Assembly (NCBI GenBank): GCA_044892525.1
Contig: CM097885.1
Span: 9,860,001 to 9,924,000 of the forward strand
Length of the DNA: 64,000 nt
Reading direction: 5' to 3'
Source of the DNA: Schmidtea polychroa
Lineage: Eukaryota
This document shows, piece after piece, positions 6,940-64,000 of the stretch (positions are counted from its first letter, which is position 1; each line of letters begins with the position of its first letter). A program made the translations under genes and the position numbers. The notes beneath the pieces are model-generated. The model searched no databases. It was not told the origin of the DNA and saw only the letters and a program-made list of their open reading frames with translations.

Positions 6940-6978
<39 letters not shown>

Positions 6979-7855
6979 TTGTAAAAATGACAAAAATTTG
7001 AAACCTGATAGCGCAGTGGGCTAGACTGGCACAGTGGTTCAAATAGATAGCGGTTCAAATCACATCTGAGGTTAGTTTTTTTTCAACATAAAATAATATT
7101 AAAAATTTGAAAATAATATTGAAAATAGTGTGGGTATCTTATATTTATATTTTATTTTATTTATTTTTATTTTATTTTATATATTTTATTAATTAATTAA
7201 TTTTTTAAACATAAATATGAAAAAAAAAATATTGAAACGGGTGTGGTGGCGAACCGGTAATTATCGCCACCAGTCTTTCGAACACCCCCGGATCGATTCT
7301 ATAATGTGCACATTTATTTCTCAGTTGTTTTCGGACCTCTTTCGGATTCACTTTCGAATTCATTTGTACTTTCGAGCAGCACGCTTAAAACGCCGATGAA
7401 ATCATGTTCGAGCGAGAAGCGAATAATAAGGTGTGCTGCTATTATCGAATTGATTCTGATGTATGAGTCTGGCCAGCTTGTATATTGGAAGAGATTTGAT
7501 AAACGAAAGAGGTTGAATAAAAAAATGATCCGGATCAAAAAAACTGTTGAGAGGACAGTGAAAAAAAAAAAAAAAATTACCACTGTCCTCTCAGAGCAGT
7601 TTTACTATTTTCATAAAATATTTTATTCTTTTTCAATTTTTTAAGTTTTATATAATTTAAAATCAATAATCTGATAAAGATCAACTCTAGAGTTTGATTA
7701 AAACAGTTAGGGGTATTAAGGGTGGTTGTTTTCAAAAATATAGGGTTAAAATACTATAAAAGTATAAGTTTTAGGTTGTTTTTCTAATGGTTTAGGCGTA
7801 ATGGAGGTATGTTTTGTTGGGGGGTTGTGTTGGTTAGGGATATAAACACACTACT
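5968..7855. mobile_element. Non-autonomous mini-Polinton with ~730 bp TIRs and 6-bp TSD
   Basis: Starts AGTAGTGTG, ends CACACTACT, flanked by ACTTTC at 5962-5967 and 7856-7861; contains MCP gene fragment (6703-6929, near-identical to ~62165-62392) and tRNA-like cassette (7002-7083, like 63203-63287). Confidence 0.92.
7002..7083 (+). ncRNA. tRNA-like Pol III cassette copy in the mini-element
   Basis: A box TAGCGCAGTGG, two B-box-like GGTTCAAAT, AACCT/AGGTT closing stem, followed by a T run. Confidence 0.5.
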
Positions 7856-32896: not shown

Positions 32897-32966
<70 letters not shown>

Positions 32967-36400: not shown

Positions 36401-36443
36401 ATACCCATAGGGGGACAGAATATTTTTTCGGATAAACTCAGAG
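33402..36443. mobile_element. Nested TIR unit in TA context, left-arm copy
   Basis: TA-CTCTGAGTTTATCCGA ... TCGGATAAACTCAGAG-TA with subterminal GTCGTAAGGGTACT repeats. Confidence 0.7.
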
Positions 36444-37927: not shown

Positions 37928-38016
<89 letters not shown>

Positions 38017-41915: not shown

Positions 41916-42350
41916 TATATATAATAAAACTGATCAACAATAAGTATTTATTGAATGTGATTTTACGATGCAATAATAAGTTATCATTTAAAAGAAGATG
42001 TTTTTGTAAATTAGAATTCATTAGTATTTCATTGTAATTTAAATTATTTTGAATTTCACGTGGTGTTTTAAAGTGATTGAGTTGTGGTTTTTTGATGAAA
42101 GTCAACATGTTTGTTAAATTTAGACATTTTGAAAAGGTTTTCTATTGATTGTAATTAAACATATTTTTGAAGACAGATAAAAAATTAATTTAAAAACATT
42201 TCATAAAATACAATAAAGAATACTTAGTTGGTTGTTAGTAACTAGTTGTAGGTATCTGGTTGTTTGAGAGTTAGTACTTGGTATCATGTTGAAAGTATTT
42301 GTTAGCATCTAGTTAAAAATATTTAGTAACCGATTGTTGGGAACTGTTGA

Positions 42351-42438
<88 letters not shown>

Positions 42439-48308: not shown

Positions 48309-49629
48309 TATGACCATGATTAAATATTCATACGACAGACCATTAGTTGGGTCACAATTTTAGTGGTTAATGGTGTTCATTGGGTCATGGGTCGAAATTG
48401 GACATGTTCACAAGACTCTAAGTTTGAAAGATGAACACCCTTAAACACACAACTAAAAGTGATATAGAAAATATTTTTAGTGATTCGGAATTAGGAAAAA
48501 ATAAATTTTTTTTATTTTTGACTAGAAACTAGATTTAAAAGTAATTTTTACCAAAACCTTGTGAACACACTGGTTCAGTTGATTATAGTTCATCAATGGA
48601 AAAAATATAATAAATTTAAGGCATTCAGATGAGAAAAATACAAATCATACTACAAAATGTTGGCTTAGTCAAAGGCACAAAGCGACTTTTCAAAAGCTTT
48701 TCAGCCAAATTTTGATATTTTTCCGTCAAAATATTTTTTTTAAAGTTAATGACAATGTATAATTTTTAAAAAATTTTGTAAGTGACCTTCCTTACTTCTC
48801 TGTGTGATCACTCATTAGTAAGAGAGCCAAAAGATTTCGCGGCAACATTTTTTTATAATTAATTTAAACATGTTTTGAAAAATATTTTAATATTTCTAAG
48901 TGATTACGCGCCACAACATATAAAAGTTCACTTCAATCATTTTATTTTTAAAAAGTCAATTTAACAATAACAATTTTCCAAAGATAGATCAACTGGTCCC
49001 ACTTTGTCAATTTTTGTCCGATTTAAAAATAACTTTCACAATTTAGATAAAATATTTTACGAAATCTTGAAAATAATTTTCAATTTACTGCAAATTGACT
49101 TTTAAAATATTATTAAAATACTTTTAATTATTTAAAAGATTCGATTGCTCATTATTTGAATAAAGACTTACTGTTAAACTATATTATTATTACAAGCTGT
49201 TACCTGTTAAAAATGACGAAGAAATTTTTTAGTTTCGATATATTAAAATCCGGGCTGAAAATAAGTAGTGAGGAATCTATGCACCCCAGCACCCCCACCC
49301 TCAAAAAAAACAGCGCTATTGACCCATATTTTCCACATTTATATGCTTTTTTACCCCATATTCTTCACTTTTTTTAACTTTTAAACTTTGTCCCCTATTG
49401 CCATTAACCCTTAATTTCTTCCCTTAAAAGTAAAAAAGTTCGGAATAGATGTATTTATAGATTAGTAATTCCGAGAAAAGGTAACGGGGTGCATAGATTC
49501 CTCACTACTTGGTCTTAAGGATTTAAGGATTTAAAGGATTTAAGGATTTAACGTTATAAGGATTTAAAAATTAATAAAAATTAATATCAAAACCAAAACA
49601 TCGTATCCAACCAAAAAATTCTTTTAAAA

Positions 49630-52600
49630 ATGGAAGCTATTTTCAATTGTGAAATTTGTGAAAAAAATTTTAAAAATAAAACTGCTTTAACATCTCATAA
49701 AAAATCAAAAGACCATTTAATAAAAGCTAACACACTAGATGACACTAATTCCAAAATCTGTACTAAATGTAAGGATAGATATTTATTTTCAGGTTATAAG
49801 AAACATTTTAAAAATTGTATTGGAGTTCCTAAAAACAGAGAAATATTCGAATGTTCAGCATGTGGAAAAAAGATGAGGATAAAATCTTTTTACTTAAGAC
49901 ACATAGAAGATTGTGGTCTTGAAGCAAAAGATTCTGATTCAAACTCAATGACTGAAAAAGCTGAAAAACTGGAGTTTAATTGGGATGACTTCAATCACAC
50001 CGATGTAATTGCAGAAGTAAAACGAGGACCCAGATCAATCATGCAATATATAAGAGAAAATAAAAAAAAAATAATATCATCAATGGATGATGCTATAAAA
50101 AAATTTGGTAGATCAAGATTTAATGTTATAAAAGTTAAATTTACAGGAAATGCAAAATACTGGAGAGGAGATGATTCGATCGCAATGCCTCTAGATGTAA
50201 AAATTGAAACCTCATATAAATATTTATTTTCTACAAAAGCAGGAAATAAACTTGTTAATGATATAGCTAAAGAATTGGAAGAAAAACAAGAACAGGTGGA
50301 ACAAGAACTAGGAGAATCTAATTTAAGATTCCACTCTTTTCAAAACATAGAGATTGAATACTGGAGAGGTGCACCACCAAATCCTAAATCTTTTATTCAT
50401 ACACCATTCACCTCCAACCATGTTATAAATGTACAGAATAAAGATAATAAATGTTTTCAATGGTCAATACTTGCACACTTACATCCTCAAGCAACTAACC
50501 CACAGAGAGTTCAAAAATATGAAGAATATGAATCTGAATTAATATATCCAAAAGATTTTTCCCACCCAATGAAAATTGAAGATGTTCCAGCATTTGAAAA
50601 ATTAAATAATCTTAAAATTAATATTTATCAATTCATTCCAACCAAAATTACAAAAACTAGAAAAAATAAAAATTATAAACACATTATTCCTATTTACATT
50701 TCTAATATGGAAATCTCAGATGAAAAGAGAGAAGTAGATCTTTTAATATTAGAAGAAGGTAAACCAGATGAAGACTTTGATGGAGAAGAATATGGTGAAG
50801 AGGTTCAAAGCGTTCACCCGAAAAGAGAAGCAGAAGAAGGCATTTCATTAGAACCAGAAGCAGAAAGCACTGCGTCCGGAGGCACTATGTTAGATAAAAA
50901 ACTTCATTATATCTTAATAAAGAATTTTCAAAGTTTTATGAAAGGAAACACACTCATTCGTGGAGGCATATGTTGTAAAAGATGTTTATATCATTCAAGT
51001 TCAAAACTTGCTGCTATTAAACATGAGAGACTCTGTTGTAAGAATCAACCTGCTTTAATAAAAATGCCACACAAGAAAAATGCTAATATGAGGTTTAAAA
51101 ACTATTCCAATCTATTAGAAGCATTGGGAGTGGTTTATTGTGATTTTGAAGCTATAAATGTAAAACTAAGACGAACAAAAACTAATACTGTAAAACTAAC
51201 AAAACAATTACCCTCTGCTTATAAAATGTTTTTCAAAAGTAATTATCCAGAACTTGTAAAATCTAGAGAATATTCATTTAGGGGAACTTCTGACAAAGAG
51301 ACTCTAGACCATTTTGTTGAAACTTTAAATAATCTAGAACATGAATTATATATAATATTAAAATCCAACTTTCCTATGAATTTTTCAGAAGAACAAGAGG
51401 AAGAATATAAAAATGCAACACACTGCTGGATGTGCAAACAAGAGTTTGAGGATGAGGAGTCAACTAGTGAACTAAAGGTTCCTGACCATGATCATTTTAA
51501 AATAGAAAATAATTACAGAGGAGCGGCCCATAAAAATTGTAATCTCAATTGTAAAAAACCAACACACATACCATTTATATTTCACAATCTTTTTGGCTAT
51601 GATATTCACCTGTTCATTAAACATCTAGCTGCAAATGCTAAAAACTCTTTCAAGGTTATTGGACTTACAAAAGAAAAATATAAAAGCATTCAATATGGAT
51701 GCTTTAAGTTTTTGGACTCGTTAAATTTCTTAGGGATGTCTTTGGATGGGATTGCTAAAACTATGAACCCTGAGGATTTTAAATATACAAAAGAACATGT
51801 GTTATTAAAAAACAATATTCCATTAGAGGAATATAATACCTGTCTAGCAAAAGGAATCTATCCATATGATTATATAGACTCCTTTGAAAAATATAATGAA
51901 TTACTCCCACCCCAAGAAGATTTCTTTTCTGTTTTAACACAATCAGGGATTTCTGATCAGGAATATTCCCGTGCACTTAAAATGTGGAATCTTTTCAACT
52001 GTAGAAACCTTGGAGAATATACTGACATGTATCTTTCCTTAGATGTTTATATCTTAGCTGATTGCTTCGAGACATTTTCAAAAGCTTTTGAATTAAAACC
52101 TTATAATTATATAACCGCTCCCTCTCTAGCTTGGGATATATTATTATATAGCATATGGACCGATGAAGACATAGCAGAAAGAAATAAAACCATTGAATTA
52201 TTAGTTGACCTTGATATGTTTAATGTATATAAACATAATATTAGAGGAGGTATTTCTTCAGTACAAGGGAATAGAGAAATAATTGCTAATAATTTTACAA
52301 CTCTTTATCCTAAATTTTTCAAAGATACTGATGCTCTATATGTAGAAATAACAAACCCAGAAGATCGTGAGGAAATACTGGAAGGTCTTTCTAATCCTTC
52401 TGAAATAATGTATATAGATGCAACAGCTTTATATGCAGGAGTAATGACTCAATATCTTCCAATTGGCAAGTTCACCTGGGAAGAGCCCACTGAGGAATTA
52501 ATACAAGAAATTCTAAAAACACCAAAGAATTCACAATATGGATATGTCATAGAATGCGATCTTGAATATCCCAATGAAATAAAATCCAGGACAAGATTCT

Positions 52601-54012
52601 TTCCATTTGCTCCAGTAAGAAGAAAGATCTCGACTGAAGAACTTTCAGACTGGCAGATGGCTCAGGATAGATCGCCCTGTATAAAACTTTTATGCGATCA
52701 GACCGATAAAACTGATTACCTTTGTCATTATAGACTCCTTCAGTTTTATCTCTCCCATGGAATGGTTTTAAAAAAAGTACATTCCATTATTAAATTTCGA
52801 CAAGCCCCTTTTATGAAAAAATTCATAGAGGGAAATATTTTGAAAAGAAATGCAGCAAAGAGAGCTGGAAATGCATTTCTTGATATGATTTACAAACTCC
52901 TGAACAATGCGGTCTTTGGAAAGACCATGGAGAATATAGACAAGTACACACGTGTAGAGCTTTTGACCAATACATCCAAAGACCTTAATAGGTACAACCG
53001 GATAATTGGAAAGCCCACATTTAAAAATGCCGAGATATTCTCTAGTAACCTTATAGCCATAGAGATTAAAAACTCTGTAAAAACTTATAATAAACCAATC
53101 TTTATAGGGTTTTCAATTTTAGAACTTTCAAAGCTTCAAATGTATGAAGCCTACTATGATGTTCTAGTACCACATTTTGGAGATCGAATATCCATGCATG
53201 CAATGGACACTGATAGTATGTTTTTAAAAGGATATAGCAAAGATTTAAAAAAAGAAATACGTGAAGATCCAACCTTAAATAAATTAATAAACAATTCTGG
53301 AGAGTTGTTTACTTTTAAAGATGAAAAACCAAATACTCCAATAACTGGAGGAGTGTTTATTAGACCTAAACAATATTCTCTTGAAATGAAAGACAAACCA
53401 ATTATGAAAGAGCATACAATAAAATTTATAATAGAAGGATCTGTTGAAGTAGATCGAACATTTGAATATCCTTCATTCCCTGAAAACCCGAAAAGCTATA
53501 AAGAAAATAAAAGTAAAGGAATTCAAAAATCAGTGTCAAAAACCTTCACACATCAAGAGTATAAAGATTCATTAAATATAAATTATAAAAATAAAATTGC
53601 TAAAACCCATCATCTTAAATCAGAGAAACATAATATATATCTTGAAGAGTGTAACAAGATTGCTATAACAAATTATGATGATAAAAGATTTATACTTTCT
53701 GACTTGAAGACAACATTACCTATTGGAAATGATTTAATCCCTATAATAAAAAATCTTGATAAAATAAATGAAATTTATAACCTAGAGATTACAGACCTTC
53801 AACTTGCTAAAGTAGAAATCCAATATCCTGAAATATTAATTCCTAAACCTTTATATAATCAAGTTCAAAATATAAAACCTATAGAACTTAAATATTTTAA
53901 TACTGATCCTGAATATATCCAAGGACTAACACCAGAAGACTTTAAATCACATAAATTAATGTTAAAAAGCATTACTGCAGAAATAATTATAAATCAATTA
54001 CGACTGGTCTAA
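49630..54012 (+). CDS. Protein-primed family B DNA polymerase with N-terminal zinc fingers and embedded endonuclease-VII-like domain
   Basis: Exo DFE, HNLFGYD, KGIYPYDY; pol YIDATALY, KLLNNAVFGK, MDTDS; CxxC...DHDH...YRGAAHKNCN. Confidence 0.96.
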   Translation: MEAIFNCEICEKNFKNKTALTSHKKSKDHLIKANTLDDTNSKICTKCKDRYLFSGYKKHFKNCIGVPKNREIFECSACGKKMRIKSFYLRHIEDCGLEAKDSDSNSMTEKAEKLEFNWDDFNHTDVIAEVKRGPRSIMQYIRENKKKIISSMDDAIKKFGRSRFNVIKVKFTGNAKYWRGDDSIAMPLDVKIETSYKYLFSTKAGNKLVNDIAKELEEKQEQVEQELGESNLRFHSFQNIEIEYWRGAPPNPKSFIHTPFTSNHVINVQNKDNKCFQWSILAHLHPQATNPQRVQKYEEYESELIYPKDFSHPMKIEDVPAFEKLNNLKINIYQFIPTKITKTRKNKNYKHIIPIYISNMEISDEKREVDLLILEEGKPDEDFDGEEYGEEVQSVHPKREAEEGISLEPEAESTASGGTMLDKKLHYILIKNFQSFMKGNTLIRGGICCKRCLYHSSSKLAAIKHERLCCKNQPALIKMPHKKNANMRFKNYSNLLEALGVVYCDFEAINVKLRRTKTNTVKLTKQLPSAYKMFFKSNYPELVKSREYSFRGTSDKETLDHFVETLNNLEHELYIILKSNFPMNFSEEQEEEYKNATHCWMCKQEFEDEESTSELKVPDHDHFKIENNYRGAAHKNCNLNCKKPTHIPFIFHNLFGYDIHLFIKHLAANAKNSFKVIGLTKEKYKSIQYGCFKFLDSLNFLGMSLDGIAKTMNPEDFKYTKEHVLLKNNIPLEEYNTCLAKGIYPYDYIDSFEKYNELLPPQEDFFSVLTQSGISDQEYSRALKMWNLFNCRNLGEYTDMYLSLDVYILADCFETFSKAFELKPYNYITAPSLAWDILLYSIWTDEDIAERNKTIELLVDLDMFNVYKHNIRGGISSVQGNREIIANNFTTLYPKFFKDTDALYVEITNPEDREEILEGLSNPSEIMYIDATALYAGVMTQYLPIGKFTWEEPTEELIQEILKTPKNSQYGYVIECDLEYPNEIKSRTRFFPFAPVRRKISTEELSDWQMAQDRSPCIKLLCDQTDKTDYLCHYRLLQFYLSHGMVLKKVHSIIKFRQAPFMKKFIEGNILKRNAAKRAGNAFLDMIYKLLNNAVFGKTMENIDKYTRVELLTNTSKDLNRYNRIIGKPTFKNAEIFSSNLIAIEIKNSVKTYNKPIFIGFSILELSKLQMYEAYYDVLVPHFGDRISMHAMDTDSMFLKGYSKDLKKEIREDPTLNKLINNSGELFTFKDEKPNTPITGGVFIRPKQYSLEMKDKPIMKEHTIKFIIEGSVEVDRTFEYPSFPENPKSYKENKSKGIQKSVSKTFTHQEYKDSLNINYKNKIAKTHHLKSEKHNIYLEECNKIAITNYDDKRFILSDLKTTLPIGNDLIPIIKNLDKINEIYNLEITDLQLAKVEIQYPEILIPKPLYNQVQNIKPIELKYFNTDPEYIQGLTPEDFKSHKLMLKSITAEIIINQLRLV

Positions 54013-54036
54013 GAATTAGAATTTTAACACTATAAA

Positions 54037-54591
54037 ATGATGGAAACTAAAAATCAAGAAAATAACATTTTTGAAATTATAAAAAATATTACTAATTTAA
54101 AGGATAACAGATGTAAAGGAATACAGAGAGTGGTTGCAAAGAATCTTTCTCATCAAGATTATAGAGATACATTAAACCCAAATCATAAAGATAAAATTGA
54201 TGAAATACATCAACTTAAAAGTGAAAACCATGATATTCACTTGATAGAATCTCAAAAAGTATCATTATCAAATTATGATGATAAGAGATTCATACTAAGT
54301 GATTTAAAGACAACTCTACCTATTGGAAATAATTTAATCCCTATAATAAAAAATCTAGAAAAGTTGAATAAGTTATATGATACAAAGATTACTGATCTTG
54401 ATATTTATAATGTTGAAATTATTTATCCCGAGAGAGAAATCGAGAAACCTTTATATTCTCAAGTTTTTAATCCTATATGTTTAGAACTTAAATATTTTAA
54501 TACTGATCCTGAATATATAAAAGGTCTAAGTGATAAAGAATTTAAAGATCATAAATTAATGATTCATAGGTTGGCTTTCAACCATAACTGA
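54037..54591 (+). CDS. Stand-alone duplicate of the pPolB C-terminal ~160 aa
   Basis: Shares KGIQ, NYDDKRFILSDLKTTLPIGN and ELKYFNTDPEYI with the preceding ORF. Confidence 0.85.
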   Translation: MMETKNQENNIFEIIKNITNLKDNRCKGIQRVVAKNLSHQDYRDTLNPNHKDKIDEIHQLKSENHDIHLIESQKVSLSNYDDKRFILSDLKTTLPIGNNLIPIIKNLEKLNKLYDTKITDLDIYNVEIIYPEREIEKPLYSQVFNPICLELKYFNTDPEYIKGLSDKEFKDHKLMIHRLAFNHN

Positions 54592-54685
54592 AACCAACGA
54601 TATTTAATTTTTTAATAATAAAATGTCGACAATTAATTTAAGCAACTATAGCAACCTGATCTACTTTTTTAAAAATACACCCATT

Positions 54686-55297
54686 TTATAAGTAAGAATT
54701 CTTTAACCATTTTTCTCGAGATGTTTTTTTATTACTTATAACATTAGCCACCATGCCCTCCCTTTTTAATCTTATAACCTCATTCTTTATATCTTGTATT
54801 ATTTGATTTGATTTCATTATTTCTTCGTCTGTCAGGATTCCATCTTCCAAAGCTTTTAATTGAAATAAAAATAATTTAGAGATTCCTAATTCTATTGATA
54901 AACAAACTTCTCTATATAAACTTTTCTTTTTAGAAGTATAAGATAATGAAACTATTTCAGTTAAGAAACCATCAGCCACAGAAATACTTCCAAGTATTAC
55001 AGGTGCAAGAGTAACAACTGGTAAAGTTATGGGTAAAATAACTGTTAATATTGCAGATGCAAATCCTAAAGAATAACCTATAACTTTTAAAACTGTATTC
55101 CCTTTATTCCATCTATTTTTAATTTTTTTATAATGCTTTAATAAATCTTGTAAATGTAAGGTTTCTGATTTAAATTCTTTTACTCTCATAATTTCAAGTT
55201 CTGTGGGAGCCGAGGCCTTGGAACCTTTGTGACCTTCGGAATAATATCCTGATGATCTCAATTCTGGGTAAATTTTTTCTTCTCTTACTTCTTCCAT
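54686..55297 (-). CDS. Putative two-TM membrane protein
   Basis: Hydrophobic block VLKVIGYSLGFASAILTVILPITLPVVTLAPVILGSISV flanked by helical charged segments. Confidence 0.7.
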   Translation of the reverse strand: MEEVREEKIYPELRSSGYYSEGHKGSKASAPTELEIMRVKEFKSETLHLQDLLKHYKKIKNRWNKGNTVLKVIGYSLGFASAILTVILPITLPVVTLAPVILGSISVADGFLTEIVSLSYTSKKKSLYREVCLSIELGISKLFLFQLKALEDGILTDEEIMKSNQIIQDIKNEVIRLKREGMVANVISNKKTSREKWLKNSYL

Positions 55298-55305
55298 TTT
55301 AATAA

Positions 55306-56316
55306 TTAAAAAAATAAGACTTTATTCTTCTGAGCACCATCTGGCACCAATACTCGGATATCAAAAGAAACTCTTGTTGAGAGGATATCTTTATACAATT
55401 CTCTCAATGCTTTACGAACTTCATCAACATCAACCTTTTTTTCATAAAATATTAAATCTATATATTGTACAAGTGAACTAGAAAAATGAATATTCTTACT
55501 TTTAACTTTATGTAGTCCATGTGAATGAGTATTAACATACCAATCTCCGTGTGGTAAATCATAACTAGTCATTATAACATCACCCTTTTCAAGCTTACTA
55601 TTATAATCACATTTCACAAACCATTTCATTCTTTCATTATCATCATCAAACAAAAAGAAATAAGGATCAATAATTTTTACAACCATAAAAACACCCCATT
55701 CTTTACTGTTTGTTGTTATTAAACTTGGTTCTATAAAATGTTTATATGTATGGGGTAATAATGTTTTATTCTGTTCTAATTCAGCAGCTCTTTTTCTAAT
55801 ACTATGTGTGGTGTTAATGTGTGTTCCATGAGACTCTAAATTTGAAATTCTTTTATTAAATGATGTAATCATCTCATTTATTATTTTATATATTGTATTA
55901 AATTTAGTATTCATAATTTGTTTATCTTTAGAATTTAATATAGCAGTATTTAACTTTACAACTTGTTCAGTTAACAGACTTTGTAACTTGTCAAATTTAT
56001 CATTAAATCGTTGTTCGATATTATTAAGCTTTGATTCCATTGAATCAATTTTTGTTGTTAATGAACTTTCAATTCTTGTTGTTGTTAAATCAGTATAATT
56101 TTTAACACCATCAACATATTTTTTATTAACTGCATCAGCTTCATCAGTTGGTAAAGATAAATCTTTTATCTTGTGTCCATTTAAATTTAAATCTCCTTTC
56201 ATTGAATCACCTCTTTCATTAATATATTTATTTTCTGTTAAAGTTAATATTTCTTCTGTATTAAACCCTGTTTTTATTGTTCCACCACCTCTATTACAAG
56301 GAATATAAGAACTCAT
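55306..56316 (-). CDS. Putative fibre/spike-like protein
   Basis: GDSMKGDLNLNGHKIKDLSLPTDEADAVNKKYVD neck-like motif, coiled coil, then globular C-terminus. Confidence 0.6.
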   Translation of the reverse strand: MSSYIPCNRGGGTIKTGFNTEEILTLTENKYINERGDSMKGDLNLNGHKIKDLSLPTDEADAVNKKYVDGVKNYTDLTTTRIESSLTTKIDSMESKLNNIEQRFNDKFDKLQSLLTEQVVKLNTAILNSKDKQIMNTKFNTIYKIINEMITSFNKRISNLESHGTHINTTHSIRKRAAELEQNKTLLPHTYKHFIEPSLITTNSKEWGVFMVVKIIDPYFFLFDDDNERMKWFVKCDYNSKLEKGDVIMTSYDLPHGDWYVNTHSHGLHKVKSKNIHFSSSLVQYIDLIFYEKKVDVDEVRKALRELYKDILSTRVSFDIRVLVPDGAQKNKVLFF

Positions 56317-56340
56317 TTATTAATAATTTAAAATGAATCT

Positions 56341-57111
56341 TCAAACCTGTTTCAAATGTAAATACATTGAAATCTCTTCTCCATTAAAATCAATCAATTC
56401 TCCTTCTTGATTAAGAATTTTAAAATTAATATCCATTATATATTTTCTACATAAAGGTAAATAATTTGGAGGATTCATTCTTTCAACTATTTTATATCCC
56501 ATAGGAACTGTGTTTGAGGGAAAGGAATATAAAACATTTGTTTGTTTACCATTATTATAAGAACCTGTTATACAATCGCAATGAATATTTATTGTGTTTG
56601 TATTTATTATTTTTATAATATGTTCTGATGTTATTATTTTATCTTCTTTTATTGTTATATCCATAGGTTTAAATCCTAAAACTGTGTGAAAGAAACAATT
56701 ATCTAAAAAACTAATTTTTATATTCTTCAAAGTCATTACACATTTTGAAGTTGGTATATCCATTTTAATTTTAATACCTTCATTTGTTTTTTTAGAAAGT
56801 ATATCATTTAAATCTTTTATCTCATATGCCCCAGGTTCTATTGTTATAATTTCTGGTTTATGCCCATCACGAGTTTGAATAGTAAATTTATTATTATCTT
56901 TAGTTATATTAAAAATAGTATTATAAGCACAAAACCATAATAGCCCCAATTCATAATTTAAATTTTGATCTAATTTAATTGAATCTTGAAAGTTTATAGT
57001 AAAGTCTGATTCTTTTGAATTTATAGATAAAGTTCTTGAATATTTATCTGACATTATGTTTACCATTTTTTTTAAATTATCTTCCGGAAGGTTGCGAAGC
57101 TCCATTTTCAT
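56341..57111 (-). CDS. Minor capsid protein (penton, single jelly roll)
   Basis: IEPGAYEI, INIHCDCITGSYNNG, GYKIVE..PNYLP, NQEGELIDFNGEEI...LHLK. Confidence 0.85.
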   Translation of the reverse strand: MKMELRNLPEDNLKKMVNIMSDKYSRTLSINSKESDFTINFQDSIKLDQNLNYELGLLWFCAYNTIFNITKDNNKFTIQTRDGHKPEIITIEPGAYEIKDLNDILSKKTNEGIKIKMDIPTSKCVMTLKNIKISFLDNCFFHTVLGFKPMDITIKEDKIITSEHIIKIINTNTINIHCDCITGSYNNGKQTNVLYSFPSNTVPMGYKIVERMNPPNYLPLCRKYIMDINFKILNQEGELIDFNGEEISMYLHLKQV

Positions 57112-57542
57112 AGTATAGATTTTAAATCATTATAAATTTCTTGGATTAAGGAAGTGAAACCTTCTCCTTTGGACTTATTCAATCTATACAAAACATATAA
57201 ACTTATAATACCACATATTTTAGTATTATTAGGTTGAACTTGTAAAGAATTAAAAGTATAGTCCTTCGACAGATAGTCTTCAACTTCTTTAGTAGGTTTA
57301 ATCCCAAAAGAATCAAAGTATATAGATTTATTATATATACAAACCCAATGAGATCCTTTTTCATTTGAATTTTGATAATTTATAATGATATTCTTTGGAG
57401 TGTCTTCTTTCAGACTAGACAATTCATCATTCATTAATATTTTTATTTTTAAATTTAAATAATCTGCATAATCTTTTAAATCAAAATTTGTTTTTGTATT
57501 TATTCCAAATGTTTTTAAAAAATCTAATATTGAAGGAGTCAT
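57108..57542 (-). CDS. Adenain-like cysteine maturation protease
   Basis: GSHWV, YFDSFG, Q-x6-CG catalytic motifs. Confidence 0.92.
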   Translation of the reverse strand: MTPSILDFLKTFGINTKTNFDLKDYADYLNLKIKILMNDELSSLKEDTPKNIIINYQNSNEKGSHWVCIYNKSIYFDSFGIKPTKEVEDYLSKDYTFNSLQVQPNNTKICGIISLYVLYRLNKSKGEGFTSLIQEIYNDLKSIL

Positions 57543-57564
57543 TTTATATTTTATAACTTCGTAT

Positions 57565-58350
57565 TTATAACTTCGTATACTTATTAAATTTATCTTTTGA
57601 AATTATTCCTTGTTTTAATAATTCTTTAGAAATCTTTAAAATATCAGAATCTAAATTATTATGTCCTGCTTTTTTAGCTGCTAATAGTTTTCTTAATTCA
57701 ATAAAAAGATTGATTGGGTTTATCTCCTTACCCTTTCCCTGGCCCTCTCCTTCTGTGACAATATAACCCCTTTCATTTTTATTTAAATATTTCTTTAAAT
57801 CTTGAATATGTTTTGCTTTAGTACTACCATGTACTAATTCTATTAAATTTAAATATTTTTTAATTTCTAGAAGATCAACATTCTCTGAGGGATATCCACA
57901 AACTAATCCATAAAAATCATCTGTAAATTCAAAATCTAGGTGTTTAGTATTATAAACATTTTGTGAATGAATACGTGATTTATTTTCTGAATTTAAATAT
58001 AACAGAAAGTCATGTTTATTAATTGTTATTATTTGATATCCTTCAACATTAATATTAAATGTAGGTTTAATTGTTTTACTTAAACTCACATTAATTTTAG
58101 GATCAAGTATAAGAGGTTTTATATTTAAATCTTCCAACCATGGTAATTCTTTTAAATCTTGTTTATCTTCCAACTCTTTAAATTTTAAAACTTCTAACTC
58201 TTTTATGGCTTTAATTGTTGGTCCTTGTTGTTGTTGGATTACCTCATTTAATATTATAGATTCAGCGTGTTGAGTTGTATCTTTTTTATTATATTTATCT
58301 TGTTCTGATTGTAATTTTTTTAAAAGTGCTAATCTTTCTTCATATACCAT
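57565..58350 (-). CDS. Conserved Polinton protein of unknown function
   Basis: C-terminal ELRKLLAAKKAGHNN...I..EL...GII pattern recalled from Polinton ORFs; GEG/GQG/GKG motifs. Confidence 0.6.
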   Translation of the reverse strand: MVYEERLALLKKLQSEQDKYNKKDTTQHAESIILNEVIQQQQGPTIKAIKELEVLKFKELEDKQDLKELPWLEDLNIKPLILDPKINVSLSKTIKPTFNINVEGYQIITINKHDFLLYLNSENKSRIHSQNVYNTKHLDFEFTDDFYGLVCGYPSENVDLLEIKKYLNLIELVHGSTKAKHIQDLKKYLNKNERGYIVTEGEGQGKGKEINPINLFIELRKLLAAKKAGHNNLDSDILKISKELLKQGIISKDKFNKYTKL

Positions 58351-58372
58351 TTTAATGGTATTAAAAATGGTA

Positions 58373-58888
58373 TCATTTTGGTAAAGGATCCGTTGGAAAG
58401 GGTTTCAAGTATAAACCTTTACCATTTTTAATTTTACAAAGACATCCATTTTTTAAAGATTTACATATTTTTTTTAAATCATCTTTATCTTTTGAAGATA
58501 AAGATTCAGATGTAGAAATTTGATTTTTTAAAAAATCATTTAAACCACGACCTTTATAAGGATCAAGATAAAGACCTTTCCCTCCCTTCATTTTCTCGAT
58601 TTCAGTTTGTAGTTTTTCTTTTTCTAGGTCTGTCTTTTGAGATTCTTTAGCTTTTTGAACTGTAGTTGCAATTCCTCCAGCTATTCCAGCAGCACCTGAT
58701 AGTCCGGCAATGATTGCAGGTATTAAAGCCGCCAGAGGAAGAATCCCTCCTTCCTTTAGTTTTTCTTTAACTTGTTCTTTTACATGTTTTCCAATAAAAT
58801 ATTTTTTACCAGAGATTACTACTGATTTATTTTTATTTGAATTTATTAATTCTTGCAAAGATTCCTCTGTAGGGTTTTGTGTTGTCAT
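58373..58888 (-). CDS. Putative protease-processed core/membrane-active virion protein
   Basis: KEGG/ILPLAALIPAIIAG hydrophobic segment; repeated GKGLYL / GRGL motifs resembling adenain sites. Confidence 0.65.
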   Translation of the reverse strand: MTTQNPTEESLQELINSNKNKSVVISGKKYFIGKHVKEQVKEKLKEGGILPLAALIPAIIAGLSGAAGIAGGIATTVQKAKESQKTDLEKEKLQTEIEKMKGGKGLYLDPYKGRGLNDFLKNQISTSESLSSKDKDDLKKICKSLKNGCLCKIKNGKGLYLKPFPTDPLPK

Positions 58889-58904
58889 TTTATAATAAAT
58901 AAAA

Positions 58905-59684
58905 ATGGATACTTGGAAACCAATTTTAAATAGACATAAATCTAAATTTAATAATAAAGTATTTCCTGATAATTTTAGATGCTTAATTATTGGATCTTCT
59001 GGATGTGGAAAGAATGTTCTTCTTATGAGAATGTTATTAGAAGATGGTTTTTTGGATTATAATAATTTAATCTTTTATTCTACAACCATTAACCAACCGG
59101 AATTACAACTTTTGAAATGTGGATTTGAAAATAAATTAACTAAAAAAGCTATAATTGATATTTTTAAAAATCAACATACATATCCCGAAGAGGTTTTTCA
59201 TCCTTGTGATATGGTTGATTGGTACAAGGAAAAGATTTTAGAATCAGATATTAGTAATAAAAATGATTATATAGGGGATGGAATCCAGATCTTATTCTCT
59301 AATAAACCTGAAGATGTTTTACATTGTGATTTACTTCCTAAAGATAAAAAGAATCTAGTTATATTTGATGATGTTGTTAATATGAAAAATCAAGAGATTC
59401 AAAAGAGTTACTTTACACGAGGTCGACATAATAATTGTAATGTTATTTATATATCTCAAACATATTATGCTTTAGATAAAAACTCTATAAGAAATAATTC
59501 TAATTGTTTTATATTTTTTAAATTAGACAAGCGTGATAAGAATATGATTTATAATGATTTATTTTCAAATGTTGAACCTGATAAGAATATGTTTGATATG
59601 TTTGTTGATAATCATTGGAAAGAAAAATATAATTATATTTATTTGGATAGAGAAGAAGCTGAAATATGGAAAAGTTTGTTTTAG
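58905..59684 (+). CDS. A32/FtsK-like genome packaging ATPase
   Basis: GSSGCGKN, LVIFDD, RGRHNN, ISQ. Confidence 0.92.
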   Translation: MDTWKPILNRHKSKFNNKVFPDNFRCLIIGSSGCGKNVLLMRMLLEDGFLDYNNLIFYSTTINQPELQLLKCGFENKLTKKAIIDIFKNQHTYPEEVFHPCDMVDWYKEKILESDISNKNDYIGDGIQILFSNKPEDVLHCDLLPKDKKNLVIFDDVVNMKNQEIQKSYFTRGRHNNCNVIYISQTYYALDKNSIRNNSNCFIFFKLDKRDKNMIYNDLFSNVEPDKNMFDMFVDNHWKEKYNYIYLDREEAEIWKSLF

Positions 59685-59695
59685 GGCTTGTCGAC

Positions 59696-61105
59696 TTAAA
59701 AATCTGTTTTCTGTAGTTCATTATTATAAAATCTACCTAATATTTTTTCATTATTTAAATCAAAGATGCTATATGTTATTGGAGTTGTATAATGTATTTT
59801 ATTTATAATAAAAATTTCATTTGTCCATTTTGCTGTGAATCCTTTTTCAAATTTATTTTTATATTTAAATATTCTTACTCGGTCACCAATTTTAAACTTT
59901 GGTTTTTCAATAACATCATTTTCAATATTTACCACTTTAATGGTTTCAGGCTTCATGGAAGCATTTAAAGGTGTTAATTTTATAGAACTATGTACATCAT
60001 TATTATATTCATTTACAATCTTTTGTAACAATTCATTGTTCCATTTTTGTTTTCCAATAGCAGTAAAATATTTCCACATTTTATTTTTTAATGTTCTATT
60101 TAATCTTTCAACTACGACTGCTTTTCCTTCGTTTTCTGTTGAATATAATTTAATATCATTTTCATTTAAAAACTTTGTAAAAACTTTGTTATAAAATTCT
60201 GTTCCTTTATCACACCATAAATATTTTGGGATTCTTTGATTTTCTTCAAATATATTTTCAAATGCTTCTGTAATAGAATATCCTGTTTTATTTTCTAAAC
60301 ATCTTGCAAAAGCAAATCTCGTATATAAATCTATTACAGTTAAAATTATTTTATATTTTTCAGGGTCTGATGATTTGGGCATAAAGACTAAATCTGCAGA
60401 CCATGTTTGATCTTTTTCATGTACTTGAACTTTTAAATATTTTTTATTTTTTCTAAATTCATGGTGTAATTCCTTTGCATATTTTATTTCTGATTCTGTT
60501 GGGGTTTGTAAACTAGTCTTGGCTGTACTCTCGAGGGATCTTTCAATCTCTGCTTGTTCGATAATCTTTTTATAAGCAACATCTTTTGCTTTCCTAGGAA
60601 GTCTTGCACCCATGGTGATCGGACTGTGTCCTAAGCCTATGAAAATCTTACCTTTCATTGCTAATTTAACTAGAGCTCTTTGAATCTTTTCTTGGGTTGA
60701 TGGATTTTGGATACTATTTAAATCATGTATTAAATTCACATCTGCAACATGTCTATCTCTAAGATCTTCAGAGTTGTAAGCAATGTCATGTTTTAAAGCT
60801 GCTTGATCAATTCTATTTATTGGTTCTTCTCCTTGTTTAGGATTATTATTTTCATCTAATCTAATATCTAATCTTGTTCCTGGTCCAGTATAATTGTGAC
60901 GGAATAAATGTCTTTCACCTGGATATTTTTCTGTAGTAAAAGGTTTTAATATTGAAGATGTTGTTTTTGAAGATTGCAAATCGCCTCCAGCTCGTGGAAT
61001 TAGGTCACCTACTGTATGTTTTTTAGTTTTAAGATGGCTTGCTTTATGATGTCTTGTAACTTGACAATTACAAGTTTCACATCTCCAATATTTATTTAAA
61101 GACAT
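59696..61105 (-). CDS. Retroviral-like integrase with N-terminal zinc finger and parvovirus-type PLA2 domain
   Basis: WSADL, LWCDKGTEF, VVERLNRTLK; HNYTGPGT...DQAALKHDIAY...AD. Confidence 0.93.
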   Translation of the reverse strand: MSLNKYWRCETCNCQVTRHHKASHLKTKKHTVGDLIPRAGGDLQSSKTTSSILKPFTTEKYPGERHLFRHNYTGPGTRLDIRLDENNNPKQGEEPINRIDQAALKHDIAYNSEDLRDRHVADVNLIHDLNSIQNPSTQEKIQRALVKLAMKGKIFIGLGHSPITMGARLPRKAKDVAYKKIIEQAEIERSLESTAKTSLQTPTESEIKYAKELHHEFRKNKKYLKVQVHEKDQTWSADLVFMPKSSDPEKYKIILTVIDLYTRFAFARCLENKTGYSITEAFENIFEENQRIPKYLWCDKGTEFYNKVFTKFLNENDIKLYSTENEGKAVVVERLNRTLKNKMWKYFTAIGKQKWNNELLQKIVNEYNNDVHSSIKLTPLNASMKPETIKVVNIENDVIEKPKFKIGDRVRIFKYKNKFEKGFTAKWTNEIFIINKIHYTTPITYSIFDLNNEKILGRFYNNELQKTDF

Positions 61106-61134
61106 TTTAAAATGTTAAAATATCAGGGATTATA

Positions 61135-62427
61135 TCAAGAATCTCCCCTAACATTTTCGATTATTGAAATCTTTCCACCATATAATTTCATTTCTATTTT
61201 CTTTTCTTCTAATATTAATGTATATACTTTAGCTTTAAAATTAGAATCCTTTGTTACATGAAGTGTAACATCAACATTATTTATGGCTAGGCGATCATCT
61301 TGGTCTGAAACATTTATACAAAATATAGAATATAAATTTTTGAAATCTTCTAAACTTAATTGCGGTTCAACTTTGAAATCATAACATGTTTCAATATAAT
61401 TTAGATATGGGAATATGTTTTCATTATTTTCAATATTAAATTCCATTCTATTTATTGGATAATAAGAACTATTTAATTGAATTTGTATTGTTTTTAAATT
61501 ATCATCTCCAATCTTTTGAATAAATAGATTGTTATTTTTTTGGAAAGATGAATCTGTTTCTTTGAATCCAATCAAGATATATCTTGGTCGGTATGCTAAA
61601 TTTGCTACCTTTATAGAATATGTTGAACCCTCTGTCATACTAAATTCACTACAGATTCTATTTAAATAATTTACATTTATAGACTTGTTGGAATTTAATC
61701 TTTCAAGGAGTTTAATCTCAGAATGTGGGTTTAATGTCCATTCAGGTATATGTAATTCAAGTGTTGATAATTTTAATTTAGCTTTTGTATCTACAGCTCC
61801 ATAGAACAATCTTTTATCACCTTCTACTCTATTACAGATGAATTCTATAAAAACATTATGAAGTATACGATTATAGTTTTGAAGGAATCCAAACAAGTGT
61901 TTTAATTCAAAATAACCTTCAAATTTTTTAGATTTATAAAGTTCAGCTCTTTTATGGTAACCATGGTTTACATCTAAACCATCTTTATCTAAATCCCCTT
62001 TATTAACATCAGGAATCCAACCTGTTAATTCACCATATTCGTTTTTATAATCACAACCAGTCAAAATAAAATTTAACATTGTAGAATATACTCCCGGATG
62101 CAAAACAGTTTCAATTTCTGATGATCCTAGTTTTAATCTCATGTTGGAGAATAAATTTGGAAAGAAATTATTTTCTAGGGTTATATCTTTGTTTGCTTCA
62201 ATTTCTAATTCGATTTTATAATATAATTTGGCATTACAAATATCTATAGGGTTTGATGTTTGAAGAGATTGAAAAACTATATCACCCCTACGATTTAAGT
62301 TTGCAATAGATCCTGAAGTTGGGGAGATTTTTAAAATATCATTTTTTTTAATTTCATGAGTAAATTCTTTATTATAATCAAGATTTAATTTATTTTTTTC
62401 TTGAATTTTAAGATTTATGTTATTCAT
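61135..62427 (-). CDS. Major capsid protein (double jelly roll)
   Basis: Size and position; NNFFPNLFS, LKHLFGF, RPRYILIGF, QLNSSYYP, LYSIFCINVS patterns. Confidence 0.85.
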   Translation of the reverse strand: MNNINLKIQEKNKLNLDYNKEFTHEIKKNDILKISPTSGSIANLNRRGDIVFQSLQTSNPIDICNAKLYYKIELEIEANKDITLENNFFPNLFSNMRLKLGSSEIETVLHPGVYSTMLNFILTGCDYKNEYGELTGWIPDVNKGDLDKDGLDVNHGYHKRAELYKSKKFEGYFELKHLFGFLQNYNRILHNVFIEFICNRVEGDKRLFYGAVDTKAKLKLSTLELHIPEWTLNPHSEIKLLERLNSNKSINVNYLNRICSEFSMTEGSTYSIKVANLAYRPRYILIGFKETDSSFQKNNNLFIQKIGDDNLKTIQIQLNSSYYPINRMEFNIENNENIFPYLNYIETCYDFKVEPQLSLEDFKNLYSIFCINVSDQDDRLAINNVDVTLHVTKDSNFKAKVYTLILEEKKIEMKLYGGKISIIENVRGDS

Positions 62428-62483
62428 TTTTATATATTAAAATTTACACACACACAATAGGATTAATTAAATATATTATGTAA

Positions 62484-62565
62484 GCCATTATAGCGGAGTG
62501 GGAATAGGCTTCAATTTTATCACCGGGAGTACCGGGTTCAATTTTCAATTTTGGTCAATTTTTTT
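62484..62565 (+). ncRNA. tRNA-like Pol III cassette 1 (most degenerate)
   Basis: A box TAGCGGAGTGG, partial B box GGGTTCAATT, T7 run; internal T4 runs. Confidence 0.4.
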
Positions 62566-62716
62566 CGATATTTTTTTCCAACGGAATCTGATTCAGCGTA
62601 CTGATTTTAGTATATATTTAAATTTTCAGATCGATCTGAGTGGTAGTTGTCGAGAAAATGAATAATTAATTATTAATTTCATCAATAAATAGTCACACAT
62701 TAACAACTTATTTTAT

Positions 62717-62799
62717 ATTGAGTATAGCTTAGTGGTAATAGCACTCGACTGCATTGCCAATACCAATGGGTTCAAATCCCATTTCGGTCAATTTTTTTT
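62717..62799 (+). ncRNA. tRNA-like Pol III cassette 2 (tRNA-Cys-like, anticodon stem broken)
   Basis: TAGCTTAGTGGTAATAGC D arm, CTGCA loop, perfect T arm ATGGG-TTCAAAT-CCCAT, T8 run. Confidence 0.65.
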
Positions 62800-62956
62800 C
62801 AAATTTTTTTTTAAACAAAATATTGATCAGCATACTCGATTTAGTACTTTTACAAATTTTTAAGGTGATTGGTCAACGGCAACTCTTGGAAATTTAAGAT
62901 CAAAAACGTTTTAACTACCAAAAATTAATATATCCAATAAAAAAATATTTATAAAA

Positions 62957-63253
62957 ATGGATGAGTTAAAAGAAAGAATGAGAAATGAATTGAATGAAGT
63001 TAAACATAAGAGAATGAAAAGAAGAGAAGAAGAACCATTAGAATACATCAAAGAGTTGATGGTAGATAATGAAAAGTATCGACATTTTTATATGAAGGCT
63101 GTAGATGTTGCTGATATAAGATTGAAGAAAATGAAACAATTACAGGAAAGAGTTAAAGAACTTGAATCGATTATTTATAGTCTAAAAAATGACAAAAATT
63201 CAAACCTTGATGGCGCAGTGGGAATAGACTGGCACAGTGGTTCAAATGGATAG
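62957..63253 (+). CDS. Small coiled-coil protein
   Basis: AAAAATGG start, charged heptad pattern; 3' end runs into tRNA-like cassette 3. Confidence 0.6.
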   Translation: MDELKERMRNELNEVKHKRMKRREEEPLEYIKELMVDNEKYRHFYMKAVDVADIRLKKMKQLQERVKELESIIYSLKNDKNSNLDGAVGIDWHSGSNG

Positions 63254-63287
63254 TGGTTCAAATCACATCTGAGGTTAGTTTTTTTTT
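63203..63287 (+). ncRNA. tRNA-like Pol III cassette 3
   Basis: A box TGGCGCAGTGG, two GGTTCAAAT, closing stem AACCTTGAT/ATCTGAGGTT, T9 run. Confidence 0.55.
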
Positions 63288-63444
63288 CAACATAAAATAA
63301 TATTAAAAATTTGAAAATAATATTGAAAATAGTGTGGGTATCTTATATTTATAAAGTACTTGTATATTTTATTTTATTTATTTTATTTTATTTTATTTTT
63401 TTATTAATTAATTATTTTTTAAACATAAATATGAAAAAAAAAAT

Positions 63445-63835
63445 ATTGAAACGGGTGATGGTGGCGAACCGGTAATTATCGCCACCTGTCTTTCGAACAC
63501 CCCCGGATCGATCCCGGTAATGTGCACATTTATTTCTCAGTTGTTTTCGGACCTCTTTCGGATTCGCTTTCGAATTCATTTGTACTTTCGAGCAGCACAC
63601 TTAAAACGCCGTTGAAATCGACTTCGTGAGCGAGAAGCGAATAATAAGGCGTGCTGCTATTATCGGATTGATTCTGATGTATGAGTCTGGCCAGCTTGTA
63701 TATTGGAAGAGATTTGATAAACGAAAGAGGTTGATAAATAAAAAAAAAATGATCCGGATCAAAAAAAAACTGTTGAGGGGACAGTGAAAAAAAAAAAAAA
63801 AAAAAAAATACCACTGTCCCCTCAGAGCAGTTTTA
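63445..63835. other. GC-rich multi-hairpin subterminal module (copies at ~6220-6590 and ~7230-7605)
   Basis: Nested complementary segments and repeated CTTTCG/CGAAAG motifs; present three times in the window. Confidence 0.75.
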
Positions 63836-64000
63836 CTATTTTCATAAAATTTTTTATTTTTAAAACTTTCAAAACCTTAAGGTGATCAGGCGACCTAGAT
63901 CATTATGAATTAGGTAATCTGATATTCTTATAACATTAAATCCTTAAGACCAAGTAGTGAGGAATCTATGCACCCCGTTACCTTTTCTCGGAATTACTAA

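What the first reader, a model, noticed from the sequence alone, without database searches (positions are those of the whole stretch)
62484..63287. Polinton carries an array of three tRNA-like Pol III genes (possible VA-RNA analogues)
Seen: three ~75-80 nt cassettes on the + strand at 62484, 62717 and 63203. Each has an A box (TRGCNNAGTGG), a B box (GGTTCAA) and an immediate oligo-T run. Cassette 2 has tRNA-Cys-like D and T arms but an unpaired anticodon stem. Cassettes 1 and 2 share the 3' end GGTCAATTTTTTT and a downstream motif (TGATTCAGCGTACTGATTTTAGTA vs TGATCAGCATACTCGATTTAGTA), so they arose by tandem duplication. Cassette 3 is also kept in the mini-element. Known: adenoviruses, relatives of Polintons, make Pol III VA RNAs that blunt host RNA-based defences. 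Inference: these are non-decoding small RNAs (decoys or RNAi suppressors) or TFIIIC-bound insulators. I do not recall such an array being described for Polintons.
Basis: partly seen in the sequence, partly recalled or inferred. Interest (0 to 1): 0.85.

Follow-up and report, generated by a model that had tools for sequence, protein, structure and literature searches.

The report
Polinton RNA module, partly rDNA-borrowed

Summary
The three cassettes are real: A and B boxes 44 nt apart, T7-T9 runs, 0 of 300 shuffles. They are not decoding tRNAs and not a dispersed SINE. They are not one Polinton-born array either. Cassettes 1 and 2 lie in a 478-bp piece that is 91-95% identical to the host rDNA intergenic spacer, which holds a longer array of the same units. 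Sister elements join cleanly across this piece, so it was most likely captured, with later exchange. Cassette 3 was found only in the element; its boxes are conserved while its body drifts. Just downstream is a fourth unit (63452-63834) with consensus A/B boxes, a fold of z -7.8 and a 25-bp G-U-rich hairpin that forms on the + strand only; it is the best candidate for a VA/TMER-like RNA. Pol III transcription and function are not shown; the only read data were contigs of runs guessed to be RNA. The scan noted this module before on another copy of the family (e1-7879910) and the spacer link for a nearby satellite (e1-7879912). My literature searches found no report for animal Polintons.

The parts
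49264..64000 (.). Polinton/Maverick element (continues to window coordinate 64198); AGTAGT ends, 6-bp target-site duplication
61135..62427 (-). major capsid protein gene, head-to-head with the RNA module
   Evidence: PF21738, E 1.2e-26
62439..62916 (+). block shared with the host rDNA intergenic spacer (91-95% identity); absent from B-type sister elements, which join 62444 to 62921
62484..62565 (+). cassette 1: A box 62491-62501, B box 62535-62544, T7 62559-62565; also in the rDNA spacer
62718..62799 (+). cassette 2: tRNA-Cys-derived, A box 62725-62735, B box 62769-62778, T8 62792-62799; 2-3 tandem copies in the rDNA spacer
62957..63253 (+). 98-aa ORF of no known family whose 3' end overlaps cassette 3; missing from some copies
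63204..63287 (+). cassette 3: found only in the element; doubled A box (63211, 63230) and B box (63239, 63255), T9 63279-63287; one or two copies per end, often at both ends
63452..63834 (+). unit 4: candidate long Pol III RNA; A box 63462-63472, B box 63505-63514 (43 nt), T4 at 63544, 63831 and 63839, first T5+ at 63850
63660..63720 (+). 25-bp hairpin with 9 G-U pairs, pre-miRNA-sized, folds on the + strand only
63766..63834 (+). 3' hairpin with an oligo-A loop, ending in T4; one compensatory pair (63778/63820)
5968..7855 (.). non-autonomous mini-element with B-type ends; keeps cassette 3 (A box 7009) and unit 4 in both arms

Best explanation
The end of this Polinton family carries a two-layer Pol III module. 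Layer 1, the element's own and older: cassette 3 and unit 4, pointing outwards next to or inside the terminal repeat. Host TFIIIC binds their A/B boxes and Pol III makes an RNA of about 80 nt from cassette 3 and, by reading through a T4, a folded RNA of about 380-400 nt from unit 4 (inferred). Unit 4 most likely acts as RNA, in the manner of gammaherpesvirus TMERs or adenovirus VA RNA: a tRNA-type promoter head followed by hairpins, serving as a Dicer substrate or as a decoy for the host's small-RNA silencing (inferred; weakest step). Cassette 3 probably matters mainly through its promoter boxes. Layer 2, recent: cassettes 1 and 2 came in as one 478-bp block from the host rDNA intergenic spacer (shared sequence shown; direction inferred), are dispensable for the family, and have been exchanged with the spacer more than once. 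My odds by step: block shared with rDNA 0.95; spacer-to-element direction 0.75; Pol III transcription of unit 4 0.65; anti-silencing or miRNA role 0.35.
For: Shown: block 62439-62916 matches 6 of the 9 rDNA spacer regions fetched at 91-95%, with one more unit upstream and 2-3 tandem copies of cassette 2 that the element lacks. B-type elements join across the block at a 6-bp repeat, and the join coincides with both ends of the spacer match. A satellite variant 18% diverged keeps cassette 2 joined to spacer sequence beyond the element's junction, whereas element copies differ by at most 5.1%. Among 30 capsid-selected loci cassette 3 is in 25, the unit 4 body in 24, cassette 1 in 19, cassette 2 in 17 (1.5-kb flanks). 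Cassette 3 has shared variants at 1 of 21 box sites against 20 of 55 other sites (Fisher p 0.008; p 0.043 and 0.095 in two other, partly overlapping locus sets). Unit 4 boxes match the tRNA consensus TRGYnnAnnnG and GWTCRAnnC (PMC4333407, passages). Unit 4 folds at -133 kcal/mol, z -7.8, better on + than on - in 92 of 92 distinct copies; the 63655-63725 hairpin gives -23.8 on + and -2.3 on -; all 5 shared changes in it keep pairing; one G-C to A-U compensatory pair in 35 of 92 copies. 2880 matches to the hairpin arm and 2298 to cassette 3; 30 of 30 hairpin loci are in element context. Contigs of three runs guessed to be RNA, from two studies, cover unit 4 and cassette 3.
Against: No run on record as RNA and no raw reads; start, end, strand and polymerase are unknown. 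One such contig runs from the capsid gene's 5' end across cassette 3 and past its T run (X3 record 21), so the cover can be read-through or DNA. A T4 at 63544 could stop Pol III after about 95 nt; four Ts suffice in human systems (PMC4333407, PMC7589676, passages), and the host tRNA-Cys gene is followed by T3 and T4 runs only. Over the whole of unit 4, 9 shared pair states keep pairing and 9 break it; 3 of 21 box sites of unit 4 vary, no better than its body. The copies are close kin, so changes are few events. In the tree the main spacer copies nest inside the element copies (element copies form one side in 0 of 200 bootstrap trees), which also fits transfer from element to spacer. No Rfam family fits unit 4. 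No such units in 37 distant relatives from metagenomes (107.6 kb, mostly without ends) or in other Polinton families within 200 kb of this genome.
Confidence: 0.45

Rival explanations
1. The units work as DNA: TFIIIC/TFIIIB-bound boxes at the element's ends act as barriers against host heterochromatin or open the promoters of the divergent capsid and polymerase genes; any RNA is a by-product.
For: Cassette 3 keeps and doubles its boxes while its body drifts and does not fold. It sits head-to-head with the capsid start (about 45 nt in some B-type copies) and, in many elements, also at the polymerase end. tRNA genes as barriers is recalled knowledge, not from a call.
Against: It does not explain a 25-bp hairpin that depends on G-U pairs and forms on one strand only. 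The window's own element has no module at its polymerase end. Gene-less derivatives keep the module, though that may follow from position alone.
Confidence: 0.27
2. All four units are passengers: captured or decayed tRNA-like pieces that ride along because they lie beside the terminal repeat.
For: Fits cassettes 1-2 well: recent, dispensable, too little variation to show selection (0-1 variable sites per class). Mixed pairing record of unit 4 outside two hairpins.
Against: Box-specific conservation in cassette 3; strong strand-specific fold of unit 4; both are kept between element types whose polymerase genes are only about 70% identical.
Confidence: 0.13
3. Unit 4 is a DNA structure used on the displaced single strand during replication or packaging, and the boxes are incidental.
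For: The 3' hairpin folds on both strands (z -8.9 and -7.6), lies near the terminus and is copied into both arms of mini-elements.
Against: With DNA parameters the strands differ little (-63.7 and -59.1), while the central hairpin needs G-U pairs; consensus A/B boxes at tRNA spacing would be a coincidence.
Confidence: 0.08
4. Cassettes 1-2 are native to the Polinton and the rDNA spacer array came from the element (an old insertion later homogenised).
For: Spacer copies nest inside element copies; cassette 3 resembles cassettes 1 and 2 beyond the boxes (2 and 5 of 500 shuffles); the spacer array lies between old inverted repeats, and one rDNA unit lacks a 2.6-kb stretch ending within a few bases of the element's junction.
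Against: The empty site in B-type elements matches both ends of the shared block; the spacer has extra units and an 18%-diverged variant joined to non-element flank; homogenisation of rDNA makes spacer copies look young (established knowledge, recalled).
Confidence: 0.2
5. The units are copies of a host tRNA-derived SINE that inserted into the element.
For: Unit 4 has SINE-like order: tRNA-type head, unrelated body, A-rich stretch.
Against: No solo copy among 30 cassette-2 loci or 30 hairpin loci, both the first 30 by position on one chromosome; no flanking duplication seen; unit 4 ends in its own hairpin and T runs.
Confidence: 0.03

Closest known systems
Murine gammaherpesvirus 68 TMERs (PMC8223928, passages read)
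   Same: Virus-borne cluster of type 2 Pol III units; tRNA-like 5' part followed by hairpins; repeated A boxes (triplicated in TMERs, doubled in cassette 3).
   Different: Unit 4 head has no cloverleaf and the unit is about 385 nt; miRNA processing not shown; carrier is an integrated Polinton; two of the units are shared with host rDNA.
Adenovirus VA RNAI/II (PMC7589676, passages read)
   Same: Intragenic A and B boxes, T-run terminators, tandem units, proposed tRNA origin, related virus lineage.
   Different: VA RNAs are about 160 nt with terminal stem, central GGGU-ACCC domain and apical stem; here 75-80 nt weakly folded units and one of about 385 nt without a 5'-3' terminal stem; no Rfam VA match; PKR, a main VA target, is a vertebrate protein (recalled).
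BLV and foamy-virus Pol III pri-miRNA cassettes (PMC6950176, passages read)
   Same: Pol III hairpin cassettes in a non-coding terminal region of an integrating virus.
   Different: Those are single or dumbbell hairpins of 111-128 nt with sequenced miRNAs; unit 4 is three times longer and multi-domain.
tRNA genes of protist polinton-like viruses and virophages (PMC12220804, passages read)
   Same: tRNA-related sequence carried by Polinton-type elements.
   Different: Those are called by ARAGORN/Rfam and read as translation aids; the units here fail both tests and cannot decode.
tRNA-derived SINEs and tDNA/TFIIIC insulators (recalled)
   Same: A/B-box promoter kept while the tRNA fold is lost.
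   Different: No solo dispersed copies seen; insulator activity untested.

Membership tests
Polinton/Maverick | pPolB, retroviral-type integrase, packaging ATPase, jelly-roll capsid | tested here: met
   PF03175, PF00665, PF04665, PF21738
Polinton/Maverick | terminal inverted repeats starting AGT and 6-bp target duplication | tested here: met
functional tRNA gene | cloverleaf with paired acceptor and anticodon stems; ARAGORN or Rfam call | tested here: not met
   0 ARAGORN genes; cassette 2 at 26.7 bits, cut-off 29; acceptor 2/7 in cassette 2, T stem 3/5 and 2/5 in cassettes 1 and 3. One spacer copy of cassette 2 scores 38.8.
type 2 Pol III gene | A box and B box at tRNA spacing, T-run terminator | tested here: met
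   consensus from PMC4333407; for unit 4 the terminator is ambiguous (T4 at 63544, 63831; T6 at 63850)
type 2 Pol III gene | Pol III/TFIIIC occupancy and a discrete 5'-triphosphate transcript | not testable with these tools
   only assembled contigs of runs guessed to be RNA
adenovirus VA RNA | about 160 nt; terminal stem, central domain, apical stem; Rfam VA model | tested here: not met
   lengths and folds; no VA hit at E up to 5 or 10
adenovirus VA RNA | GGGU-ACCC stem in the central domain | tested here: inconclusive
   unit 4 has a GGGUG/CACCC helix (63453-57/63498-502) but at its 5' end; broken in 5 of 92 copies
adenovirus VA RNA | inhibits PKR, is cut by or saturates Dicer | not testable with these tools
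   needs bench work
TMER-type tRNA-miRNA RNA | 5' tRNA-like fold | tested here: not met
   unit 4 head: T stem 4/5, acceptor 3/7, no kinship to four host tRNAs beyond the boxes
TMER-type tRNA-miRNA RNA | downstream pre-miRNA-like hairpin | tested here: met
   61-nt, 25-bp hairpin with 7-nt loop
TMER-type tRNA-miRNA RNA | processing into mature miRNAs | not testable with these tools
   no small-RNA reads served
SINE | dispersed solo copies with own target duplications | tested here: not met
   0 of 30 and 0 of 30 loci outside element context; not a genome-wide census
rDNA intergenic-spacer sequence (cassettes 1-2) | present between 28S and 18S genes in rDNA units | tested here: met
   6 of 9 spacer regions; 1 has a diverged variant in a rearranged unit; 2 lack it, one by a 2.6-kb gap and one because the unit is cut short

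The most novel reading that the evidence does not exclude
An animal Polinton makes its own Pol III RNAs, among them a roughly 385-nt multi-hairpin RNA that blunts or feeds the host's small-RNA silencing (a functional counterpart of VA RNA/TMER in a lineage related to adenoviruses), and it enlarges this module by repeatedly picking up tRNA-like Pol III units from an undescribed antisense array in the host's rDNA spacer.
Probability: 0.3. Interest if true: 0.85.

Novelty: new variant of a known kind. Interest (0 to 1): 0.6.

Why it matters
Polintons are usually described by their proteins. An element-encoded Pol III RNA would give them a non-coding tool of the kind adenoviruses and herpesviruses use against host defence, and could help explain how a family reaches more than a thousand near-intact copies. 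With about 2,900 copies of unit 4 the RNA should be easy to detect, so the idea is directly testable. Separately, an antisense array of tRNA-like Pol III units in an animal rDNA spacer, exchanged with a transposon, is unusual; my one search on it (25 of 89 papers listed, titles and abstract starts seen) showed none with that term.

Tried and rejected
Decoding tRNAs: rejected. Dispersed SINE: rejected on 60 loci. Cassette 3 from tRNA-Trp, a resemblance I recalled: not supported against the host gene (96 of 500 shuffles for the window copy, 16 of 500 for a variant); only four host isotypes were compared, and a combined Trp/Phe pattern found nothing. Unit 4 or cassette 3 with its flanks from rDNA: no match above shuffles. 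Unit 4 as SRP RNA, VA RNA or a known miRNA: no Rfam match near a cut-off. Expression: no RNA holder on record was listed. In one search the summed contig depth of X1, X2 and X3 was highest at 63501-63800 (about 9000/6100/2500; 3100/18800/10100; 21/65/43), lower at cassette 3 (366, 1227, 9) and 0-12 at cassettes 1-2, while the DNA-like run X5 stayed within 0.7-2.5 million; the tool states that contig depth cannot rank parts and that a filter drops some records, so I use this neither for unit 4's level nor against cassettes 1-2. Relatives in viral contigs: none. Distant metagenome relatives: no A/B units in 37 loci, no tRNA match in the 20 scanned with Rfam; relaxed ARAGORN gave only noise. A distant capsid query returned the same family in the 30 of 100 loci examined. 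Cluster look-up gave no names. The whole genome could not be scanned by script, so copy numbers come from pattern counts and contexts from samples of 30. Papers: searches (1 paper, not on this; 0 papers with 'Polinton' and 'VA RNA'); passages of PMC8502044 (no VA RNA mention; one tRNA mention in a figure legend on other viruses), 10.64898/2025.12.11.693146 and 10.1101/2023.02.20.529178 showed nothing on such units. No supplements were read; repeat libraries or supplements could annotate these units.

Full report
Setting. The window lies in G000, an unnamed 781-Mb animal genome with four large chromosomes. The element runs from 49264 to 64198, with AGTAGT ends and a 6-bp target duplication, and encodes pPolB, an A32 ATPase, an integrase and a double-jelly-roll capsid protein. 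It is a Polinton. At least 40 places match 62400-63400 at 99% or more.

Observation. Each has an A box and a B box 44 nt apart and a run of 7-9 Ts 14 nt after the B box; cassette 3 has both boxes doubled. No shuffle of 300 gave a single such unit. They are not tRNA genes: ARAGORN finds none, only cassette 2 touches the Rfam tRNA model, below its cut-off, and the stems are incomplete. Cassette 2 derives from tRNA-Cys. No parent tRNA was found for cassettes 1 or 3 among the four host isotypes tested, although cassette 1 scored above most shuffles against Lys and Cys (2 and 11 of 500). Cassettes 1 and 3 fold no better than shuffles; cassette 2 reaches z -2.7.

Copies. A pattern for the 5' half of cassette 2 has 2271 matches. 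This includes host tRNA-Cys arrays (998 by a related pattern) and some rDNA copies, which leaves roughly 1,200 element copies by subtraction (my estimate). The first 30 loci are all in element context. Cassette 3 has 2298 matches. Among 30 loci chosen by the capsid gene, 19 have cassette 1, 17 cassette 2, 25 cassette 3; 9 have cassette 3 and unit 4 without cassettes 1-2; 2 have none within the flank. In many elements cassette 3 lies in long terminal repeats at both ends, once or twice, pointing outwards.

Cassettes 1-2 are shared with rDNA. I tested it. Window 62439-62916 matches 6 of 9 spacer regions at 91-95% including indels. The spacer holds an extra upstream unit, then cassette 1, then two or three copies of cassette 2, antisense to the rRNA genes. 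Elements without the block join 62444 to 62921 at a 6-bp repeat, which is where the spacer match begins and ends. A satellite variant 18% diverged keeps cassette 2 attached to spacer sequence beyond the element's junction, while element copies differ by at most 5.1%. Against a single capture: spacer copies nest within element copies, next to the window's own copy (0.7% at closest; support 95/91; bootstrap not fully settled; 49 rows, only full-length hits kept), and the cassette 1 part of the window copy is also closer to the spacer than to most element copies. Repeated exchange explains this; transfer from element to spacer is not excluded. The block varies too little to show selection.

Cassette 3. 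It has no match in the spacers fetched, though it resembles cassettes 1 and 2 beyond the boxes (2 and 5 of 500 shuffles), so an older common source is possible. Shared variants fall on 1 of 21 box sites and 20 of 55 other sites in capsid-selected loci, against 14.9% of capsid third positions; Fisher p is 0.008, and 0.043 and 0.095 in two other sets. The sets overlap in ancestry and variants are not independent, so this is moderate support for selection on the promoter rather than on an RNA fold.

Unit 4. 250 nt further on lie an A box (63462) and a B box (63505) 43 nt apart that fit the tRNA consensus given in PMC4333407 (passages). The next 380 nt fold at -133 kcal/mol, z -7.8, against -107 and z -4.7 for the other strand; + is better in 92 of 92 distinct copies. 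A 25-bp hairpin at 63660-63720 has 9 G-U pairs, folds at -23.8 on + and -2.3 on -, and its 5 shared changes all keep pairing; since all are transitions, I put the chance of that near 0.05. A 3' hairpin has one compensatory pair in 35 of 92 copies and folds on both strands. Elsewhere shared changes often break pairs: 9 kept and 9 broken overall. T4 runs lie at 63544, 63831 and 63839, and the first longer run at 63850, so a long RNA needs read-through of one T4. The hairpin arm has 2880 matches; the first 30 are all in element context. No Rfam family fits.

Expression. No run on record as RNA holds the stretch. Contigs of three runs guessed to be RNA, from two studies, cover unit 4, cassette 3 and the capsid gene. 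Their summed depth peaks over unit 4 while a DNA-like run is comparatively flat, but the tool states that contig depth cannot rank parts, and one contig spans the capsid start, cassette 3 and its terminator. I take this as compatible with transcription, not as proof.

Reach. No such units were found in 37 distant metagenome loci, mostly lacking ends, or around other Polinton families in 200 kb of this genome, where every A/B pair found belonged to this family's module and shuffles gave 0-4. The module is family-specific as far as tested. Earlier notes report Pol III-type hairpin genes and intact tRNA genes in Polintons of other genomes; I did not check them and do not count them as support.

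Mechanism and comparison. Shown: anatomy, copy numbers, rDNA sharing, box conservation in cassette 3, strand-specific fold of unit 4. Inferred: Pol III transcription, read-through, an RNA-level role, and the direction of capture. The layout works like TMERs, VA RNAs and the BLV/foamy-virus cassettes (passages of PMC8223928, PMC7589676, PMC6950176), but it fails the membership tests for VA RNA, for a tRNA-fold head and for tRNA genes. Protist polinton-like viruses carry callable tRNA genes (PMC12220804, passages), which is a different thing. Searches found no paper on Pol III non-coding units in animal Polintons; the library lacks most subscription journals and I read no supplements.

Verdict. 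Observation confirmed, interpretation partly supported, new variant of a known kind, interest 0.6. The scan had noted the module on another copy of this family (e1-7879910).

Noticed in passing
L209:5252-6300 (also L201, L203, L206, L208, L211): The host rDNA spacer holds an array of 4-5 tRNA-like A/B-box units at about 240-bp spacing, antisense to the rRNA genes, about 3 kb from the 18S start; the first unit is not in the Polinton.
   Followed up: partly
L209:4122-4463 and 6462-6944; L213: The spacer array lies between old inverted repeats (66-69% identity). One rDNA unit lacks 2.6 kb including the array, with its break within a few bases of the Polinton's right junction.
   Followed up: partly
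L168:2794-3072; L202:2800-4245: A 1245-bp satellite carries an 18%-diverged cassette 2 with intact boxes and T run but a changed anticodon arm; 21 matches, all near the start of C1.
   Followed up: yes
L032, L033, L036, L038 and others versus window 49567-52258: B-type elements share the capsid gene at about 95% but the polymerase gene at only about 70% DNA identity, which points to module swapping.
   Followed up: no
window 54037-54591: ORF that repeats the C-terminal part of pPolB (73% DNA identity to 53500-53961).
   Followed up: no
window 59696-61105 and 58373-58888: Integrase with an N-terminal phospholipase-A2-like domain in the same ORF; a weak adenovirus pX-like match lies in a separate ORF.
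   Followed up: no
window 29639-44287: Large near-perfect palindromic stretch with internal tandem repeats and no clear genes.
   Followed up: no
G000:C1:269.25 Mb; C4:55.02 Mb; C4:76.66 Mb; C140, C333, C474: Host tRNA genes lie in long single-isotype tandem arrays (998 pattern matches for Cys, 864 for Trp; also Lys and Arg).
   Followed up: no
L125:5436-5515: Long hairpin between polymerase and protease genes of a distant Polinton (48.6 bits to a miRNA model, cut-off 84); no A/B pair found by my scan.
   Followed up: no
L226:4056-5252; L230:1572-2768: Derivatives whose module match starts just before cassette 2 keep cassettes 2, 3 and unit 4 without the capsid gene.
   Followed up: partly
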